A program made the translations under genes and the position numbers. Below, piece by piece: positions 52,024 through 59,159 of a stretch of DNA of 64,000 nt (positions are counted from its first letter, which is position 1; every line of letters begins with the position of its first letter). The notes beneath the pieces were generated by a model, which ran no database searches, had not been told where the DNA came from, and saw only the letters and a list, made by a program, of their open reading frames with translations. Origin of the DNA: Alphaproteobacteria bacterium (GTDB taxonomy: Bacteria; Pseudomonadota; Alphaproteobacteria; JAAXGF01). Location of the stretch: contig CAUVXB020000002.1 of assembly GCA_963555825.3 (NCBI GenBank), forward strand, positions 2,240,001 through 2,304,000, given 5' to 3'.

Positions 52024-53199
52024 ATACCAGTGAGCGCCTGAATTGACTCTCGGGATATTCATTGATGGCGGATGATGGCGGATTGTGATTCTATGGTCTC
52101 CCACCAGATGTGGGGGATGTCATGGGATCAGCACTCAAGATACGGGATGATTTGACGCCTTTGGAGCTTCGGCGCTGGGCTCGCGTGGAATCGTACGGTC
52201 GAGCGGCGGCGCGGGCCTATGGGATCGCGAATGCTTTGGAGGAGATGCCCCGGGCTGATGCCGCGCGGCTTGCGGGGATGGATCGCCAAACGCTTCGCGA
52301 CGCGGTTGTTCGTTACAATGCAAAGGGATTGGAGGGGCTTCACGACCGTCCAAAGGGCTACTCGCCGCGGCGGCTGACGGCAGACGAGGAAGCGGCGCTG
52401 GCGGCGGTCATCATCGCCGGGCCGGAGCCTGAGCGCGACGGGGTTTGCGCCTGGACCCGGGCCGATCTGTGCCGCTGGCTGGAGGAGCGCTTCGCCAAGA
52501 CCTACCACCCCTCGAGCATGACCCGGGTTCTACGGCGGATGGGATTTTCCCGCCAGAAGGCGCGCCCGAGCCACCCGCGAAGGGACGCCGAAGCGCAGGA
52601 GCGCTTCAAAAAAGGGGGCTTCGCGACATCCTGAAGGCGACCGCCGCGGCGCATCCCGACAAGCGCCTACAGCTGTGGTTTCAGGATGAAGCGCGCGTCG
52701 GCAACAAGGGCCGGGTGTGTCACCGGTGGTGGCGCAGGGGCGAGCGTGCCCCCGGGACGCGTCAAATCGGCTACCAGTGGGCCTACATCTTCTCCGCCGT
52801 GCGCCCGGACACCGGCGACGACGTCACCCTGGTGATGCCGAGCGTCAACGCCAAGGTCATGGACCTGTTTCTCGCACACTTCGCCGATACCCTGGACCAG
52901 GATGCGCACGCCGTCATGATGTGCGACGGCGCCGGTTGGCACGACGAGCGCGCCCTCACCGTCCCCGACAACGTCACCTTGGCGCTGTTGCCGCCTTACA
53001 GTCCCGAACTCAACCCCGTCGAGCGGGTTTGGCTCTACCTACGCGAACGCTTCCTATCGCTCCGCGTCCTCGACGACACCGAGGCCATCATCGACGCCTG
53101 TTGCCAAGCATGGATCGACCTCATCGCAGAACCGGATCGTATGCGAACCCTCTGCGCCTATCCATGGATCATGAAGGTGATTTCATAGGCTCACTGGTA
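52024..53199 (+). mobile_element. IS630-family element, type B, copy 2
   Basis: Same 1176-bp length and identical ORF translations as 35910-37085. Confidence 0.93.
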
Positions 53200-53201
53200 T
53201 A

Positions 53202-54068
53202 ATACCAGTGAGCGCCTGAATTGACTCTCGGGATATTCATTGATGGCGGATGATGGCGGATTGTGATTCTATGGTCTCCCACCAGATGTGGGGGATGTCA
53301 TGGGATCAGCACTCAAGATACGGGATGATTTGACGCCTTTGGAGCTTCGGCGCTGGGCTCGCGTGGAATCGTACGGTCGAGCGGCGGCGCGGGCCTATGG
53401 GATCGCGAATGCTTTGGAGGAGATGCCCCGGGCTGATGCCGCGCGGCTTGCGGGGATGGATCGCCAAACGCTTCGCGACGCGGTTGTTCGTTACAATGCA
53501 AAGGGATTGGAGGGGCTTCACGACCGTCCAAAGGGCTACTCGCCGCGGCGGCTGACGGCAGACGAGGAAGCGGCGCTGGCGGCGGTCATCATCGCCGGGC
53601 CGGAGCCTGAGCGCGACGGGGTTTGCGCCTGGACCCGGGCCGATCTGTGCCGCTGGCTGGAGGAGCGCTTCGCCAAGACCTACCACCCCTCGAGCATGAC
53701 CCGGGTTCTACGGCGGATGGGATTTTCCCGCCAGAAGGCGCGCCCGAGCCACCCGCGAAGGGACGCCGAAGCGCAGGAGCGCTTCAAAAAAGGGGGCTTC
53801 GCGACATCCTGAAGGCGACCGCCGCGGCGCATCCCGACAAGCGCCTACAGCTGTGGTTTCAGGATGAAGCGCGCGTCGGCAACAAGGGCCGGGTGTGTCA
53901 CCGGTGGTGGCGCAGGGGCGAGCGTGCCCCCGGGACGCGTCAAATCGGCTACCAGTGGGCCTACATCTTCTCCGCCGTGCGCCCGGACACCGGCGACGAC
54001 GTCACCCTGGTGATGCCGAGCGTCAACGCCAAGGTCATGGACCTGTTTCTCGAACACTTCGCCGATAT
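53202..54068 (+). mobile_element. IS630-family element, type B, copy 3 (tandem, truncated by IS21)
   Basis: Starts after a shared TA; homology ends at the IS21 terminus. Confidence 0.9.
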
Positions 54069-54259
54069 TGTCAATGGCGGAGCAAAAAGGGACCACCTCG
54101 GCGGTGTAAGAAGGGACCGCTTGGCGGCTGCGGGCTTGTCCCCGTAGTCCACGGGAGGGCCCCGCGCGCGACGCGGCGTGCCCTCAACAGGCTGACGCGG
54201 CGGCGCGCGCGGGAGGGACCTGTGGGCCCACGGGGTCAAGCGTGGGCTGGGTGGTCGGT

Positions 54260-55024
54260 TCAGTTAGCAGTCGGGGTTTGACGCCTGCGGCTCTGGTTGA
54301 GCCTGTAGCTGTCACCGTTCATCTCGAGGATGTTGACGTGGTGGGTGAGGCGATCGAGGAGCGCGCCGGTGAGGCGCTCGGAGCCGAACACCTCGGTCCA
54401 TTCGTCGAAGGGCAGATTGGTGGTGACCAGGGTCGAGCCCCGCTCGTAGCGTTGGCTGAACACCTCGAACAACAGCTCGGCGCCGGTCTTCGACAGCGGC
54501 ACGAAGCCGAGTTCGTCGACGATCAGAAGCTTGTAGGTGGCGAGCTTCTTCTGGAACCTCAGCAGCTGCTTGTCATCGCGGGCCTCGATGAGTTCGTGGA
54601 CCAGCGCGGCGGCGGTGATGAAGCCGACCGAGAGGCCCTTCTGGCAGGCCGCCAGGCCGAGACCGAGGGCGATGTGGGTCTTGCCGGTCCCACTGTTGCC
54701 GAGCGCGATGAGGTTCTCGCGGCGCTCGATGTACTCGCAGCGGGCCAGCTCCAGGACCAGCGCCTTGTTGAGCGAGGGGATGACCTTGAAGTCGAAGCTG
54801 TCGAGGCTCTTGACCACGGGGAAGCGCGCCGCCTTGATGCGCCGCTCGACCATGCGGCGCTCGCGGTCGATCAGCTCGAGCTCGGCGAGTCTCAACAGGT
54901 AGCGGACGTGATCGACGCCTTCCGAGGCGCACTGCCGGGCGATCTTGTCGTACTCGCGCAGGAAGGTCGGCAGCTTCAGCGTCTTGAGGTGGTGGGCGAG
55001 CAGCACTTGCGGTGTGTCGGTCAT
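54260..55024 (-). CDS. istB: IS21 helper ATPase IstB
   Basis: [25 protein letters not shown]. Confidence 0.93.
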   Translation of the reverse strand: MTDTPQVLLAHHLKTLKLPTFLREYDKIARQCASEGVDHVRYLLRLAELELIDRERRMVERRIKAARFPVVKSLDSFDFKVIPSLNKALVLELARCEYIERRENLIALGNSGTGKTHIALGLGLAACQKGLSVGFITAAALVHELIEARDDKQLLRFQKKLATYKLLIVDELGFVPLSKTGAELLFEVFSQRYERGSTLVTTNLPFDEWTEVFGSERLTGALLDRLTHHVNILEMNGDSYRLNQSRRRQTPTAN

Positions 55025-55699
55025 GCGCCGAGCCCCGACAGCAGGCTCATGTACGACTTGGCGGACGTCATCGCGACCCGGGCGCGCGGCAGATACGGAT
55101 AGACGTCGAGGTTGAGCCTGGGCGGCCGCCGCTCGATGCGGCACAGTACCAGGTGCTTCACCGCATCAAAGCCGATTGCGCCGAGCCGCAGGGCGTCGCC
55201 GACCGCACCCTCGACCTCCTCGAGCCGGAAGGTCTCCAGTAGACGGAGCACCTGGACGTACTCGCGCTTGCCTGCCTTGCCCATACGAGCTTCGAGGAGC
55301 CGCCGCAGAGTGATGAAGGCCTCGGGCAGGTCCCAGCCCGCCAATGGCGCGGCCTGGTCGAGGGCGCCGATCTTCTGCTCGATCAAGGGCAGGTAATGCA
55401 GCGGGTCGAAGATCAGGTCCTCGCTGTCGTAGGACCGGCGGTGCCGGGCGATCACCTCGGCCCCGCAGCTGATCACCACCTCATCGACGTAGCCCCGGAT
55501 GAGCACCTCACGGTGGCCGTAGGCCACGGGCACGGAATAGTCGTTGCTGCGGTAACGCACCAGCGACAGCGAACTCGCCCGTCCAGGGCGCTTATCGCAG
55601 GCATCATAGGGAGCAGGCGGCAATGGCAAGAGAACTTGACGATCCCGCTCGAGACGCTCGCCGATGGTCTCCTTATATGAGGCGTTTGCTGTCAAGGTG

Positions 55700-55989
55700 G
55701 ATTTAATCTACGCCACATGATCGTCTCTTCCATTGGTTATGGCTTTGTATCCAGGGCGGGTCTTGCGATGAGTTCCGTGTTTCGTGCGAGTGATCGCATC
55801 ACCTTATATCCGGCAGCTCCGATCCGGCTTGCCACAATGCTGTATACATGGACCATCACAGGACGGGGATGGGACTAATCTTGTGGACGGCACCTTCGCC
55901 AAGGAGACATGCAGTCACACATCCAACCTGCCAACAAGCGTTCCCATCGGGGAATGAAGCCCGTTAGAACGCTGAGCTGATCCGCAGTC
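55700..55989 (-). ncRNA. Putative seek/bridge RNA of the IS1111-type element
   Basis: Guide-like segments at 55900-55908, 55880-55886, 55837-55841 and 55803-55809 match the target and donor halves; RNA ends are approximate. Confidence 0.75.
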
Positions 55990-57123
55990 CTATTTGACGA
56001 CAGCACCCACCGGGATCAGCCCGGTTTCCAGATACCGCCAAAGCGCGATCGCCAGTTTGCGGGCCAGGGCGACGATCATGACGCGCCTGATGCGCCCCTT
56101 CTGACCTTGGGTGCGGTCATGGAACCACTGGGTCAGAGCGCTATCGGGTTGATGGCGGACCCAAAGCCATGCGGCTTCGATCATGGCAACCCGTGCCAGC
56201 CGATTGCCCGCCTTGGAGATGCCTTGGCTGCGGCGCCCGTCGCCGCTGTCATAGGCACTGGGCGTGATCCCGATATAGCTTGCCACCTGTCGGCGATTGG
56301 CGAACTGGCGATAATAGACTTCCCGTGCGAGCGTCGTGGATAAGGCCGGGCCGAGGCCCTTTAAGCGCAGCAGCTGGTGACGCTTGCTTTCCGTGGCCAC
56401 ACACGGTGTCGGCGCTTGATCACGCTCACGCTCGACCTCGACGATCTGCGCTTGGACCTGGGCCAGTCTCGCGATCTCCCGCGCGATCTCGCGGCCGAGA
56501 CGGTCCGGCAGGGGTCGGCCGTCTCCGGTGACCAGCGCCGCCGGTGTCAAGGTCTTGTAGCGCGCCTTGACATTGATGCCGCGAATGCCCTGACCGAATA
56601 GCAGACCCTTGATCCGGTTGATGTGGGCGGTTCGCTCGCGGACCAATCGGTCACGTTCCCGATGAGAGCGGCGAAGGTCCTCCTCCGCGACGCTCGGAAT
56701 CACCACCATGGAGCAGACATGACGCTCGCCGCGGCACCAGGCGATCAGCGTATGAAGAATATTCTCGACATCGATGCGGTCGGTCTTCACCCGCCGCGCC
56801 CGGCGGTTGACCCGCAAGCTGGCCGGCTCCATGACCAGACACTCGATGCCGCGCTGCTCGAGGAACCGCGCCAACCAGAAGCCGTCGTAGCCGGCCTCGT
56901 AGCACAGCGTTATCGTCGGCGTTCGACCCGTCACCTTGACCACCCGGTCCCGCGCCGCGTCCAGCTTGGCCATCAGTCCTTCAGCGTCGCCGCCCTTGAT
57001 CGGATGCAAGCTCGGATTGCCCCGCCCCGGAGCCTGGATCGCCAAAAGCCAGCTGTTCTTGCTCAACTCCAGTGCCGCATAAATAGCGTGTTCATTGGAG
57101 GTCGATACCGGAAACTGTGCCAT
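55990..57123 (-). CDS. IS110-family DEDD recombinase
   Basis: ALELSK, CYEAG, KTDRID, PSAYDSG, ISKAGN, ALARKL. Confidence 0.93.
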   Translation of the reverse strand: MAQFPVSTSNEHAIYAALELSKNSWLLAIQAPGRGNPSLHPIKGGDAEGLMAKLDAARDRVVKVTGRTPTITLCYEAGYDGFWLARFLEQRGIECLVMEPASLRVNRRARRVKTDRIDVENILHTLIAWCRGERHVCSMVVIPSVAEEDLRRSHRERDRLVRERTAHINRIKGLLFGQGIRGINVKARYKTLTPAALVTGDGRPLPDRLGREIAREIARLAQVQAQIVEVERERDQAPTPCVATESKRHQLLRLKGLGPALSTTLAREVYYRQFANRRQVASYIGITPSAYDSGDGRRSQGISKAGNRLARVAMIEAAWLWVRHQPDSALTQWFHDRTQGQKGRIRRVMIVALARKLAIALWRYLETGLIPVGAVVK

Positions 57124-58162
57124 CGTGTCGCTCCTTCTGATCGAGGTTGAAATAATCGAAGGAGCTTGAGGCTGCGTCCTTCAGCCTCATAGCATCTTGT
57201 GGCCCCGCAGCCGCGCCGCCTGGCGCCGGCGGCACTGTTCGGCGAGAGCATCGTTGAGGGCCGCGAAGCTCTCGGCACGCGGGACGGGGACCAGGAAGTT
57301 CCGCCGGATGAAGCCGACCAGTCCCTCGACCTTGCCCTTGTCGTTGCCCTTGCCCGGCCGGCCGAACCTGTCCTCGAACAGATAGTGGGACTGAAGCTCC
57401 GTGAAGACGCGCGTTCGCTGCCGCTTCCCATCGCCCAGGATCCGGGCAACCGCCAGCTTGGTGTTGTCGTACAGGATGGATCGGGGGACGCCGCCGAAGA
57501 AGGCAAACGCCGCGTTGTGGCCATCGCAGAATGCTTCGGTCGTCTCCGCCGGATAGGCCGCAACAAAGCAACCATCACTGTGGGGAAGGTCGAAGGCAAG
57601 GAAGTGGATCTTCCGTAACGCGCCGCCGATCACCGCCATCGCTTCGCCGAAGTCCGCCTGGGCGTGACCGGGGGAATGGGAGAGTGGCACGAACACCTCA
57701 CGCGACCGAAGCCCCTGCTCACGAACGTAGTCCTTCACGATGGTGTAGCCGCCCGTGAAACCGTACTCGTCCCGGAGGCGGTCGAAGATGCGCTTCGCAG
57801 TGTGCCGTTGCTTGCGGTGGCTGGTCCGATCGTCTTCCAAGATCCGATCGATGATTCCCGTGAACGGACCCAGCTTTGGCCGCCTCGGCGGCGCGCTTCG
57901 GCGATACCCTGGCGGCACCGAGAACGACAGCATCTTACGGACCGTCTTGCGGTCTACACCAAACACCCGCGAGGCCTCGCGGGTGCTCATCCCCTCGACA
58001 TGACACGCCCGCCGAACCCGTGCGTACAACTCCACCCGATACATCCCCCCCGCCTTCCAGTCAGAGCAACCCTGACAGAAGGCTATACGCGGTCCCATTT
58101 TGGTCCGCCGCAGCCGGATCGACCGGCCGCTTCAGTGGGGGATTATTGCTCTGCCCTTCTCA

Positions 58163-58925
58163 AGCATGCGGAACGTCCTGCCATCGTGTGTGCGGGCCAT
58201 GACGAAGTCATAGGCCCAGACATGGTTCGGCCAGCTCGGTCGCAGACGGATGCAGGACCCGTCGTTGAGCCACAGTCGGCCTCTCTTGGGTTGCTTTACA
58301 GGCACCTTCAGCCCCTCCCGTCGCCAGATGCGTTCGACCCGCTTGTGGTTCACGTGCCAACCATCTCCGCGGAGCAGCGCCGTGACCCGGCGATAGCCGT
58401 AGCGGCCATACTCACTGGCTAGCCGCACGATCGCCTCGGTGAGCGCCGCCTCATCGTCAGCCCCGACACGTCGATAGCGTTGCGTCGAGCGTGGCTGTCC
58501 GATGACCTGGCACACCCGGCGCTCGGGTAATCCATATCGTGTGCAGACATGCACAACACAGCGCCGGCGACGCTCGGGGCTTAGAAGTTTCCCTCGGCGG
58601 CTTCCTTCAGGATCAGTTTATCCAGCGTCAGATCGGCGACGGCTCGCCTGAGATGTGTGTTCTCCCGCTCGAGCTCCTTGAAGCGTCGGGCCTGCCCAAC
58701 CTTCAGGCCGCCGTACTCCTTGCGCCACCGATAGTACGTCTGCTCGGCGATGCCCAAGGTCCGGCACACTTCGGGCACCGTGTGACCGCTCGCCAGGCCG
58801 ACTTCAGCCTCACGCAGCTTGCTGATGATCTGTTCCGCGGTATGTCGCTTCCGTGGCATCTTGACCTCCTCTCCAACGGCCCAAGACTAACATTCCGCCT
58901 GGGCCAGGTTTTGGGGGGCAGGTCA
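58163..58925 (-). mobile_element. IS3-family (IS407-like) element, truncated copy
   Basis: Near-identical to 62485-63760; orfA 58581-58859; orfB cut by IS21. Confidence 0.9.
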
Positions 58926-58994
58926 ATCCCAGAGGACATGCTCACGGTCCCGGGGTTCGAGGGCGTCGACGGTTCGTTTGGTGATCTTGGCCAT
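58926..58994 (-). pseudogene. N-terminal stub of an arm-type tyrosine integrase
   Basis: MAKITKRTVDALEPRDREHVLWD preceded by GGAG; cut by the IS3 end. Confidence 0.65.
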
Positions 58995-59159
58995 GGCACA
59001 CTCCGTTTCTCGTTGCCTTATGGGAACCGCATGGGTACCCACAGGATGCAAACCGGAGTGTATTATAGTCGGCGACTGGCGGGTCGAAAAGACCCTAACA
59101 CCATGTAATATCGCATCTATCGTATGACATGTACCGACTAGTCACGACATCCCATGATG

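What the first reader, a model, noticed from the sequence alone, without database searches (positions are those of the whole stretch)
55672..57198. IS1111-type recombinase whose non-coding RNA region spells out a target inside IS21 istA
Seen in sequence: the element splits istA. On the minus strand the restored target is GGCCAC-AAG-GAGAC (codons GHKET) and the circle junction is CTCATAT-AAG-ATGCTAT. The 3' non-coding region holds four guide-like segments in order on the RNA. GTCTCCTTG (55908-55900) is the exact complement of target CAAGGAGAC. CCACAAG (55886-55880) equals left target plus core. AGCAT (55841-55837) is complementary to donor ATGCT. ATATAAG (55809-55803) equals left donor plus core. 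The bases following the two left guides match the partner DNA, as handshake positions would. Established: IS110/IS1111 elements use bridge or seek RNAs. Inference: this element is programmed to hit an IS21 transposase coding sequence, a target I do not recognise from described examples.
Basis: partly seen in the sequence, partly recalled or inferred. Interest (0 to 1): 0.8.

Follow-up and report, generated by a model that had tools for sequence, protein, structure and literature searches.

The report
RNA-guided IS1111-type element inside IS21
A small jumping gene of the RNA-guided IS110/IS1111 kind carries a guide RNA that spells out a 12-base word found almost only inside the transposase gene of another, very abundant jumping gene (IS21) in this genome, and it has landed there repeatedly; this is a clear new example of a known mechanism, not a new mechanism.

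Summary
Window 57195-55675 (minus strand) is a 1.52-kb element with one 377-aa IS110-family RNA-guided transposase, 8-bp subterminal inverted repeats and a 315-nt downstream non-coding region. It splits IS21 istA at GGCCAC-AAG|GAGAC.

The genome holds 11 full copies. Seven sit at the identical istA site. Four sit at unrelated loci that carry the same word with at most one mismatch. All 69 empty exact CCACAAGGAGAC sites lie in istA.

In 32 of 80 related loci the non-coding region has the same architecture. Six helices are 94.1% paired and 16 of 34 pairs show compensatory changes. They enclose two internal loops that hold the four guide segments.

Across 18 target classes the loop sequences track each element's own flanks (0 of 20,000 permutations). 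A relative with 89% protein identity aims at CCAAAAG|CGGAC instead. A sister group sits in IS3-family transposase genes.

So this is a new, naturally retargeted member of the seekRNA/bridge-RNA family. RNA binding and activity were not tested. Whether IS21 was selected as a target or matches by chance is open. The handshake claim is only half supported.

The parts
55672..57198 (-). Whole element with both copies of the AAG core. It is 1524 bp counted with one core. One of 11 full-length copies in the genome (99.87-100% identical).
   Evidence: joint 'skips 1524' in 4 of 4 runs
57196..57198 (-). Left copy of the core AAG (junction of left target and element)
57184..57191 (-). Left subterminal inverted repeat TATGAGGC, 4 nt inside the left end ATGC
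   Evidence: Read. The same ends (ATGCTATGAGGC ... GCCTCATATAAG) occur in relatives.
55990..57123 (-). Transposase gene, 377 aa: RuvC-like domain (PF01548) plus Transposase_20 (PF02371). Conserved residues are E19, E76, D115, D118 and S293-G294.
55913..55927 (-). 5' strands of helices P1 and P2 that close the target-binding loop
   Evidence: 9 of 12 pairs in these two helices have compensatory changes
55900..55908 (-). Target guide 1, GTCTCCTTG. It is complementary to the top strand C-AAG-GAGAC (core + right target) and lies on the 5' side of the target loop.
   Evidence: it covaries with the right flank in relatives
55888..55901 (-). Small hairpin P3 (UGGC...GCCG) between the two target guides
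   Evidence: 94.4% paired; GGU/ACC variants in L027 and L050
55880..55886 (-). Target guide 2, CCACAAG. It is identical to the top strand (left target + core), so it is complementary to the bottom strand. It lies on the 3' side of the target loop.
55855..55876 (-). 3' strands of helices P2 and P1
55837..55841 (-). Donor guide AGCAT, complementary to the element's left end ATGCT. It lies on the 5' side of the donor loop.
   Evidence: the 5-mer is complementary to the element's own left end in 19 of 25 loci, including AGGAT with ATCCT
55811..55834 (-). Near-invariant hairpin P4 (UGGCAAGCCGGAUCGGAGCUGCCG) inside the donor loop
   Evidence: 99.5% paired; one compensatory A-U to G-C
55803..55809 (-). 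Donor guide ATATAAG, identical to the element's right end plus core. The next base, G55802, equals the first right-target base.
55774..55797 (-). Hairpin P5 and the 3' strand of helix P6, which closes the donor loop together with 55852-55847
   Evidence: P6 is 80.9% paired; 4 of 6 pairs have compensatory changes
55676..55683 (-). Right subterminal inverted repeat GCCTCATA, followed by T and the right core copy AAG (55674-55672). A conserved TTGACA lies at 55695-55690.
   Evidence: relatives
57199..58098 (-). 5' part of IS21 istA (NF033546, rve core). It is cut after ...G H K and ends two codons into the element (M L stop).
55021..55671 (-). 3' part of istA (Mu-transpos_C_2 domain), starting at E T I G E R
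54260..55144 (-). istB, the intact helper ATPase gene of the same IS21 copy

Best explanation
This is an autonomous IS1111-type member of the IS110 family. Its transposase works with a structured RNA made from the 315-nt region downstream of the gene (a seekRNA or bridge RNA).

One internal loop of that RNA carries GUCUCCUUG, which pairs with the top strand of C-AAG-GAGAC. It also carries CCACAAG, which pairs with the bottom strand of CCAC-AAG. A second loop carries AGCAU and AUAUAAG, which match the element's own joined ends. Recombination at the shared AAG core then places the circular element, in one orientation, at the word CCAC-AAG-GAGAC.

In this genome that 12-bp word occurs almost only in the istA gene of an IS21 present in about 80 near-identical copies. 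The element therefore accumulates there and cuts IstA between its catalytic core and its C-terminal domain.

Shown here: anatomy, copy distribution, conserved RNA structure, and covariation of guides with flanks.
Inferred from published work on relatives: that the RNA is made, binds the protein, and directs excision and insertion.
For: Family. NF033542 'IS110 family RNA-guided transposase' scores 204 bits against a cut-off of 140. PF01548 and PF02371 both match.

Copies. There are 11 full copies. Seven lie at the same istA position in the same orientation. Four lie elsewhere, with restored sites CCACAAGGAGAC, TCACAAGGAGAC (twice) and CCATAAGGAGAC. Two internally deleted copies and one 233-nt remnant with a different 3' tail also lie at the istA site.

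Word distribution. All 69 of 69 empty exact 12-mers are in istA, where 0.75 would be expected from base composition. The only exact site outside istA is occupied.

Chance. Both target matches arise together in 1 of 20,000 shuffles of the non-coding region.

Structure. In 27 distinct sequences, 34 pairs in 6 helices are 94.1% paired, against 31-47% when the partners are slid. Sixteen pairs have changes on both sides, and 0 of 500 shuffles reach the observed covariation score. RNAalifold alone found 26 pairs, 13 of them compensatory.

Guides track flanks. Of 26 loci with both flanks, 18 target classes were kept. The summed match of each target loop to its own flanks is 227, reached by 0 of 20,000 permutations. 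The element's own target ranks first for 12 of 18 classes, 9 of them without ties. Examples: L022 (89% aa) has guides GTCCGCTTG/CCCAAAG and flanks CCAAAAG|CGGAC; L027 has GGTAAAG; L024 has GGTAGAG.

Donor guide. It covaries with the left end: AGCAT with ATGCT, and AGGAT with ATCCT, in 19 of 25 loci.

Guide order. It equals that reported for IS1111 seekRNAs (PMC11187229, section 9).

RNA libraries. Contigs from three RNA libraries cover the non-coding region. This is weak, because DNA may be present in such libraries.
Against: No experiment was possible. The ends of the RNA, its binding to the protein and any current activity are unknown.

Single-sequence folding is no better than shuffles (z = +0.94 and +0.86). 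No Rfam family matches.

Covariation is imperfect. Six of 18 classes do not rank their own target first. L034 and L028 have poor right-guide matches. Six of 25 loci have a donor guide that mismatches their own left end.

The transposase is 377 aa, outside the 330-350 aa quoted for IS1111 transposases. It is only 23.6% identical to the IS4321 transposase.

The seven istA copies need not be seven independent insertions. IS21 copies are too alike to tell.

Only about 10 of 79 istA sites are occupied, and 41 one-mismatch sites outside istA are empty.
Confidence: 0.88

Rival explanations
1. The match to IS21 is fortuitous and was not selected. The element specifies a 12-bp word, inherited with a few changes from relatives that aim at hairpin repeats. 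IS21 merely happens to contain that word and then amplified to about 80 copies, which created many landing sites.
For: Four of 11 full copies lie outside IS21 at the same word.

The closest relatives target a hairpin-like repeat (ATGTCCGCTTT...AAAAGCGGACAT) and differ from this element by about four guide bases.

A 130-nt remnant at C2:1770129 has the hairpin-like left flank ATGTCTCCTCCTGGCTAC|AAG.

Only about 10 of 79 istA sites are filled.
Against: A sister group is found between orfA and orfB of IS3-family elements in 13 of 14 loci. The host ISs there are only 48-96% alike, so landing inside other ISs' transposase genes recurs in this clade.

Every empty exact site in this genome is in istA.
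Confidence: 0.5
2. Most istA-borne copies were not made by the element itself. One insertion into one IS21 was then multiplied when the composite (IS21 carrying the element) was moved in trans by IstA/IstB from intact IS21 copies.
For: The seven occupied IS21 copies and their inserts are 99-100% identical. No SNP separates occupied from empty IS21 copies, so the data cannot exclude this. Many intact IS21 copies could supply the proteins (57 uninterrupted).
Against: The element clearly moves by itself, since it occupies four non-IS21 sites carrying the same word.

A remnant with a different 3' tail (89% identical) occupies the same istA position, which suggests at least two separate hits.

Two occupied copies carry private changes in the IS21 part.
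Confidence: 0.25
3. The protein alone recognises the site, as a classical site-specific recombinase would, and the matches in the non-coding region are coincidental or merely regulatory.
For: No RNA-protein data exist for this element. Single-sequence folds are unremarkable.
Against: Guide segments change with the flanks across 18 target classes while the protein stays 57-89% identical. The loops are framed by helices with compensatory changes. Published experiments on relatives show that the RNA is required (PMC11187229, sections 9, 10 and 14).
Confidence: 0.03

Closest known systems
IS1111-family elements with a seekRNA (ISEc11, ISPa11, ISKpn4, ISPst6; Siddiquee et al. 2024, PMC11187229; sections 6, 9, 10, 13, 14 read)
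   Same: The same features are present: a DEDD-type transposase followed by a long downstream non-coding region, subterminal inverted repeats, two short target matches with the top-strand-complementary one first, and natural retargeting between close relatives (the ISEc11/ISXne4 pair there; this element and L022 here).
   Different: The transposase is longer (377 aa against about 340) and is only distantly related to IS4321/IS5075 (23.6% identity over residues 58-362). The first acidic residue of the catalytic set appears to be Glu in all 34 clade sequences examined. The target is a coding sequence of another IS.
IS621 / IS110-group bridge RNA (Durrant et al. 2024, PMC11208160; Hiraizumi et al. 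2024, PMC11208158; passages read by term search)
   Same: A two-loop RNA is present, with one loop for the target and one for the donor. Each loop has a guide for each strand around a shared core. A base next to the donor guide covaries with the target, as the 'handshake guides' do.
   Different: The RNA lies in the right end, not the left. The guide order is reversed. The core is 3 nt (AAG) rather than CT. Only the C-terminal domain aligns to the solved IS621 and ISCro4 proteins (E 1.9e-10 and 3.9e-12 with a profile).
IS110-family elements that target other mobile elements: IS1383 into the inverted repeats of IS1384; IS4321/IS5075 into Tn21-family terminal repeats; the IS1111-attC group (titles seen in the reference lists of PMC11208160 and PMC11187229; the papers themselves were not read)
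   Same: Here too, a site-specific IS lives inside another multicopy mobile element.
   Different: Those targets are terminal repeats or attC sites. Here the target lies in the middle of the transposase reading frame and inactivates it. In the sister group it lies at the orfA/orfB boundary of IS3-family elements.
ISPpu9/ISPpu10 and IS621, which target REP sequences (abstracts in the listings)
   Same: Multicopy short targets are hit in a specific orientation. The closest relatives of this element (L022-L030) also sit in hairpin-like repeats.
   Different: This copy family has left the hairpin target. Three of the 4 non-IS21 sites show no hairpin within the 30 nt printed upstream.

Membership tests
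IS110 family (RNA-guided DEDD transposases) | N-terminal RuvC-like DEDD domain (PF01548) and C-terminal Transposase_20 domain (PF02371) with a conserved Ser-Gly | tested here: met
   PF01548 matches at E 1.1e-9 and PF02371 at E 1.6e-16. NF033542 scores 204 bits against a cut-off of 140. The motif G-x-x-P-x-x-x-x-S-G is GITPSAYDSG, and S293-G294 are invariant in 12 of 12 aligned sequences.
IS110 family (RNA-guided DEDD transposases) | Catalytic tetrad D-E-D-D | tested here: inconclusive
   E76, D115 and D118 are invariant and align weakly to the CMEAT and KTD..D stretches of ISCro4/IS621. At the first position the clade has E19 (A-L/I-E-L-S-K) in 34 of 34 sequences. Its equivalence to the first Asp is inferred from the NCBIfam match that starts at residue 15. 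It was not shown by structure.
IS1111 group | Subterminal inverted repeats of 7-17 bp (Durrant et al.) | tested here: met
   The repeat is 8 bp: TATGAGGC (57191-57184) and GCCTCATA (55683-55676). They lie 4 nt and 1 nt (plus core) from the ends. They are conserved in relatives.
IS1111 group | The long non-coding region lies downstream of the transposase gene | tested here: met
   The non-coding region is 72 nt upstream and 315 nt downstream.
IS1111 group | seekRNA with the top-strand-complementary match 5' of the bottom-strand-complementary match (PMC11187229, section 9) | tested here: met
   GTCTCCTTG (55908-55900) precedes CCACAAG (55886-55880) on the RNA strand.
IS1111 group | Transposase related over its full length to that of IS1111 and 330-350 aa long (PMC11187229, section 6) | tested here: inconclusive
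   The protein aligns to the IS4321/IS5075 transposases over residues 58-362 (81% of its length) at 23.6% identity, E 4e-8. Its length of 377 aa is outside the quoted range. No tree with ISfinder references was built.
seekRNA / bridge RNA systems | Guide segments covary with target and donor DNA across relatives | tested here: met
   Target: 0 of 20,000 permutations reach the observed match over 18 classes. Donor: the guide is complementary to the element's own left end in 19 of 25 loci, including AGGAT with ATCCT.
seekRNA / bridge RNA systems | Guides lie in internal loops of a conserved structured RNA | tested here: met
   The 6 helices are 94.1% paired, and 16 of 34 pairs have compensatory changes.
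seekRNA / bridge RNA systems | The RNA co-purifies with the transposase and is required for excision and insertion | not testable with these tools
   Only contigs from RNA libraries that cover the region are available. They do not show transcription, RNA ends or binding.

The most novel reading that the evidence does not exclude
This clade of IS1111-type elements may have specialised as parasites of other insertion sequences. Under this reading, its guide loops are repeatedly retuned to conserved words inside the transposase genes of whichever IS is abundant in the host: IS21 istA here, and the orfA/orfB boundary of IS3-family elements in the sister group. Each hit would give the element a harmless multicopy home and switch off one copy of the host IS. 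The element would then act as a natural RNA-guided brake on IS expansions, with predator-prey dynamics between two layers of mobile DNA.
Probability: 0.3. Interest if true: 0.65.

Novelty: new member of a known kind. Interest (0 to 1): 0.45.

Why it matters
It is a clean natural case of retargeting. About four base changes in two short guide segments separate a hairpin-repeat seeker (L022, 89% protein identity) from an element that lands in a transposase gene. The occupied and empty sites can all be counted within one genome.

It supplies a ready-made set of about 18 guide/target pairs from one clade for testing the programming rules of IS1111-type RNAs, including a candidate handshake position. 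These RNAs are less studied than IS621.

It also shows that RNA-guided ISs can live inside, and inactivate, other ISs' transposase genes. This bears on how IS bursts in symbiont-like, IS-rich genomes are shaped.

Tried and rejected
- Rfam 15 scan of 54000-59000 at E <= 1 gave no match. This says only that no curated family fits.
- Single-sequence folds of the non-coding region were no more stable than shuffles. They were set aside in favour of comparative structure.
- An automatic search of the alignment for covarying helices found only short pieces, because of indels. It was replaced by a hand-built 34-pair structure that was tested with controls.
- SNP typing of IS21 copies, meant to tell independent insertions from copying of a composite, was uninformative. 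The copies are near-identical.
- Read laying could lay contigs only. No circle junction was seen, and no RNA ends or strand could be read. In run X17 the transposase gene part (about 56076-57163) had no cover while the non-coding region did. Depth figures are not used as copy numbers.
- The PDB sequence search aligned only the C-terminal domain, with weak RuvC stretches. The equivalence of E19 to the first catalytic Asp therefore stays unproven.
- I looked for a sigma-70-like promoter across the inferred circle junction by eye only. TTGACA lies in the right end, but no convincing -10 lies at 16-19 nt. This was not pursued, because the junction is not a contiguous natural sequence in the window.
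- Pfam on the flanks of L031, L033, L034 and L051 gave no mobile-element context. IS-in-IS targeting is therefore not universal in the clade.
- Literature searches for an IS110/IS1111 element in IS21 istA (listings only) showed no such report. Subscription papers, ISfinder and supplementary files were not searchable.
Full report
WHAT IS THERE

On the minus strand of the window an IS21 istA reading frame runs to ...CTG CGG GGC CAC AAG. It is then interrupted by ATGCTATGAGGC... at 57195. It resumes after ...GCCTCATAT AAG with GAG ACC ATC GGC at 55671.

The insert holds one ORF, 57123-55990, of 377 aa. The ORF matches Pfam DEDD_Tnp_IS110 and Transposase_20. It also matches NCBIfam NF033542, 'IS110 family RNA-guided transposase', at 204 bits against a cut-off of 140.

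The flanks are the two parts of IstA: NF033546 with the rve core upstream, and Mu-transpos_C_2 downstream. An intact istB follows.

The upstream non-coding part of the insert is 72 nt and the downstream part is 315 nt. Eight-base subterminal inverted repeats, TATGAGGC and GCCTCATA, lie 4 nt and 1 nt (plus core) from the ends.

IS IT MORE THAN CHANCE?

In 20,000 dinucleotide-preserving shuffles of the non-coding region, three counts were taken:
- a match of 9 nt or more to the complement of core plus right target appeared 37 times;
- a match of 7 nt or more to left target plus core appeared 1,453 times;
- both appeared together once.

COPIES AND SITES

The window's genome has two contigs, 6.04 Mb and 65% G+C. 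It holds 11 full-length copies that are 99.87-100% identical.

Seven copies are at the same istA position in the same orientation. The other four are at unrelated loci whose restored sites are:
- CCACAAGGAGAC, inside a large serine recombinase gene;
- TCACAAGGAGAC, twice;
- CCATAAGGAGAC.

These four sites differ from the istA word by at most one base, and the difference is always in the left-target part.

Further copies at the istA site are:
- two internally deleted copies;
- a 233-nt remnant whose 3' tail differs from the full copies (89% identity).

A separate 130-nt left-end remnant lies at ATGTCTCCTCCTGGCTAC|AAG.

The IS21 itself is present about 80 times. Of 66 copies with both halves, 57 are uninterrupted and 9 carry an insert.

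The exact word CCACAAGGAGAC occurs 69 times unoccupied, always in istA, against 0.75 expected from composition. There are 46 one-mismatch sites, 5 of them in istA, and 512 two-mismatch sites. The only exact site outside istA is therefore occupied, and about 10 of 79 istA sites are occupied.

Contigs of four public runs (three RNA libraries and one DNA) carry both the element and the empty site. The joint skips exactly 1524 bases with 3 ambiguous bases, which fits a 3-nt AAG core. Loose ends in those runs reproduce three of the other insertion sites.

RELATIVES AND THE RNA

A scan of one genome per species returned 80 loci encoding relatives of 49-89% identity, mostly Alphaproteobacteria. Thirty-two of them (L022-L053) share the downstream architecture, including a nearly invariant hairpin, GCAAGCCGGATCGGAGCTGCC.

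After dropping 4 duplicates and 2 loci that were too short, I aligned 27 distinct sequences. RNAalifold predicted 26 pairs, 13 of them with compensatory changes.

A hand-built structure of 34 pairs in six helices gave these results:
- 94.1% of cells are paired, against 31-47% when the 3' partners are slid by 1-3 columns;
- 16 pairs have changes on both sides;
- 0 of 500 shuffles reach the observed covariation score.

The helices frame two internal loops:
- In the first loop, GTCTCCTTG lies on the 5' side and CCACAAG on the 3' side, separated by a small hairpin.
- In the second loop, AGCAT lies on the 5' side and ATATAAG on the 3' side, around the invariant hairpin.

DO THE LOOPS SPECIFY THE SITES?

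I located element ends in the relatives by their conserved termini. Twenty-six loci had both flanks, and these fall into 18 distinct target classes.

For each class I scored the longest exact match of the target-loop region to the complement of core plus right flank, and to left flank plus core. The summed score for the elements' own flanks is 227. None of 20,000 random re-pairings reached it. The own target is the best-scoring one for 12 of 18 classes, 9 of them without ties.

The six failures are L028, L033, L043, L044, L046 and L047. Several of them belong to one group with similar targets, or look like off-target copies.

Concrete cases:

| Locus | Protein identity | Flanks | Guides |
|---|---|---|---|
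| L022 | 89% | CCAAAAG\|CGGAC | GTCCGCTTG and CCCAAAG |
| L027 | not recorded | GGTAAAG\|CGGAC | GTCCGCTTG and GGTAAAG |
| L024 | not recorded | GGTAGAG ... AAG\|CCGAC | GTCGACTTG and GGTAGAG |
| L037 | not recorded | CAGAAAAG\|CCCTCCA | TGGAGGG and CAGAAAAG |

The donor guide also covaries. Elements whose left end is ATCCT carry AGGAT. Overall the 5-mer is complementary to the element's own left end in 19 of 25 loci.

The order of the guides, top-strand-complementary first, is the one reported for IS1111-family seekRNAs. It is the reverse of the IS110 type (PMC11187229, sections 9 and 14).

HANDSHAKE POSITIONS

In IS621, handshake guides are bases next to the core in one loop that pair with the partner DNA after strand exchange (PMC11208158, passages).

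Here the base after ATATAAG equals the first right-target base in 15 of 24 loci. There are G/G, C/C and T/T cases in what look like about six separate lineages. There are also consistent mismatches in the L022-L030 group. I read this as suggestive.

The AT after CCACAAG equals the donor's first two bases in 10 of 25 loci. The donor start never varies, so nothing can be concluded from it.

MECHANISM

The best-supported reading is that this is a working, or recently working, IS1111-type RNA-guided insertion sequence. Its target loop specifies CCAC-AAG-GAGAC.

The steps that are inferred from published work, and not shown here, are:
- transcription and processing of the RNA;
- its binding to the transposase;
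- excision as a circle;
- recombination at the core.

Insertion in istA is in the sense orientation. Read-through from IS21 could therefore contribute to expression, which is an inference. The insertion truncates IstA after its catalytic core.

WHAT STAYS OPEN

First, the seven istA copies may be seven separate hits, or partly copies of a composite moved by IS21 proteins. IS21 copies are too similar to decide. However, the four non-IS21 sites and the variant remnant at the same istA position argue that direct targeting happens.

Second, IS21 may be a selected target or a lucky match. The nearest relatives aim at hairpin-like repeats and differ by about four guide bases, and one remnant in this genome sits in such a hairpin-like site.

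On the other side, a sister group of 14 loci (57-59% identity) lies between orfA (HTH_Tnp_1) and orfB (HTH_21 + rve) of IS3-family elements in 13 of 14 loci. Those host elements are only 48-96% alike. L037 also lies beside an IS3-type orfB. Landing inside other ISs' transposase genes therefore recurs in this clade.

COMPARISON WITH WHAT IS KNOWN

The mechanism class is known (Siddiquee et al. 2024; Durrant et al. 2024; Hiraizumi et al. 2024). Targeting of other mobile elements by this family is also known. Examples are IS1383 into the inverted repeats of IS1384, IS4321/IS5075 into Tn21-family repeats, and attC sites. I saw these only as titles in reference lists.

What differs here:
- the target is a coding-sequence word in the middle of IS21 istA;
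- the subclade is divergent, with a 377-aa protein;
- the protein is at most 57% identical to anything in the plasmid collection;
- it is 23.6% identical to the IS4321 transposase;
- only the C-terminal domain aligns to solved IS621 and ISCro4 structures;
- Glu appears at the first catalytic position in 34 of 34 clade sequences.

Four literature searches found no report of an IS110/IS1111 element in IS21 istA (listings only). ISfinder, subscription papers and supplementary tables, such as the target logos of Siddiquee et al., could not be checked and may hold similar cases.

VERDICT

This is a new member of a known kind, with a neat natural retargeting series. Interest is moderate.

Noticed in passing
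whole genome G000; in the window the IS21 copy spans about 58162-54100 (minus strand): One IS21-family element of about 2.54 kb is present roughly 80 times in a 6.04-Mb genome, and most copies are 99.9-100% identical. This indicates a very recent burst. Several copies are themselves truncated or interrupted by other sequences.
   Followed up: partly
window 57069-57067 (codon E19 of the transposase); relatives L022-L094: All 34 clade sequences examined have A-L/I-E-L-S-K where IS110-family transposases usually carry the first catalytic Asp (the usual motif is recalled, not from a call). This suggests an E-E-D-D set. The equivalence was not verified by structure.
   Followed up: partly
window 55695-55690, and the right ends of L031-L052: A TTGAC(A) hexamer sits at a conserved distance upstream of the right end CATATAAG in this element and its relatives. 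It could be the -35 half of a promoter completed at the circle junction, or an outward-reading promoter. No convincing -10 was found by eye.
   Followed up: no
L039-L050, L052, L053 (for example L039 1429-3064): A sister group of the element (57-59% aa identity) is inserted, in opposite orientation, between orfA and orfB of IS3-family elements at GACAAAAAG|...AAA|TCGTTTTCGACC. This lies in or next to the run of T/A at the end of orfA. The left core copy reads AAG and the right one AAA, which hints at where strand exchange occurs within the core.
   Followed up: partly
L022, L023, L025, L030 flanks: The closest relatives sit in a hairpin-like repeat, ATGTCCGCTTT(N)CCAAAAG|CGGACAT, so guide 1 equals the 5' arm of the hairpin. 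This looks like a REP-type target. Its copy number in those genomes was not examined.
   Followed up: no
G000 C1:1251402-1251634: A 5'-truncated remnant at the same istA site keeps the RNA region from guide 2 onward unchanged. It has an unrelated stretch of about 80 nt between the RNA and the right end, so a second variant of the element once existed in this genome.
   Followed up: partly
window 52445-54147 (+): Two ORFs (52445-53188 and 53623-54147) begin with the same roughly 150 residues. This is a tandem or nested duplication of another transposase-like gene just beside the IS21 copy. It was not identified.
   Followed up: no
G000 C2:3336900-3337800: This is a scrambled patch in which decayed pieces of IS21 istA and of the IS1111-type element (81% identity) are interleaved. 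It is possibly an old occupied copy eroded by deletions.
   Followed up: no
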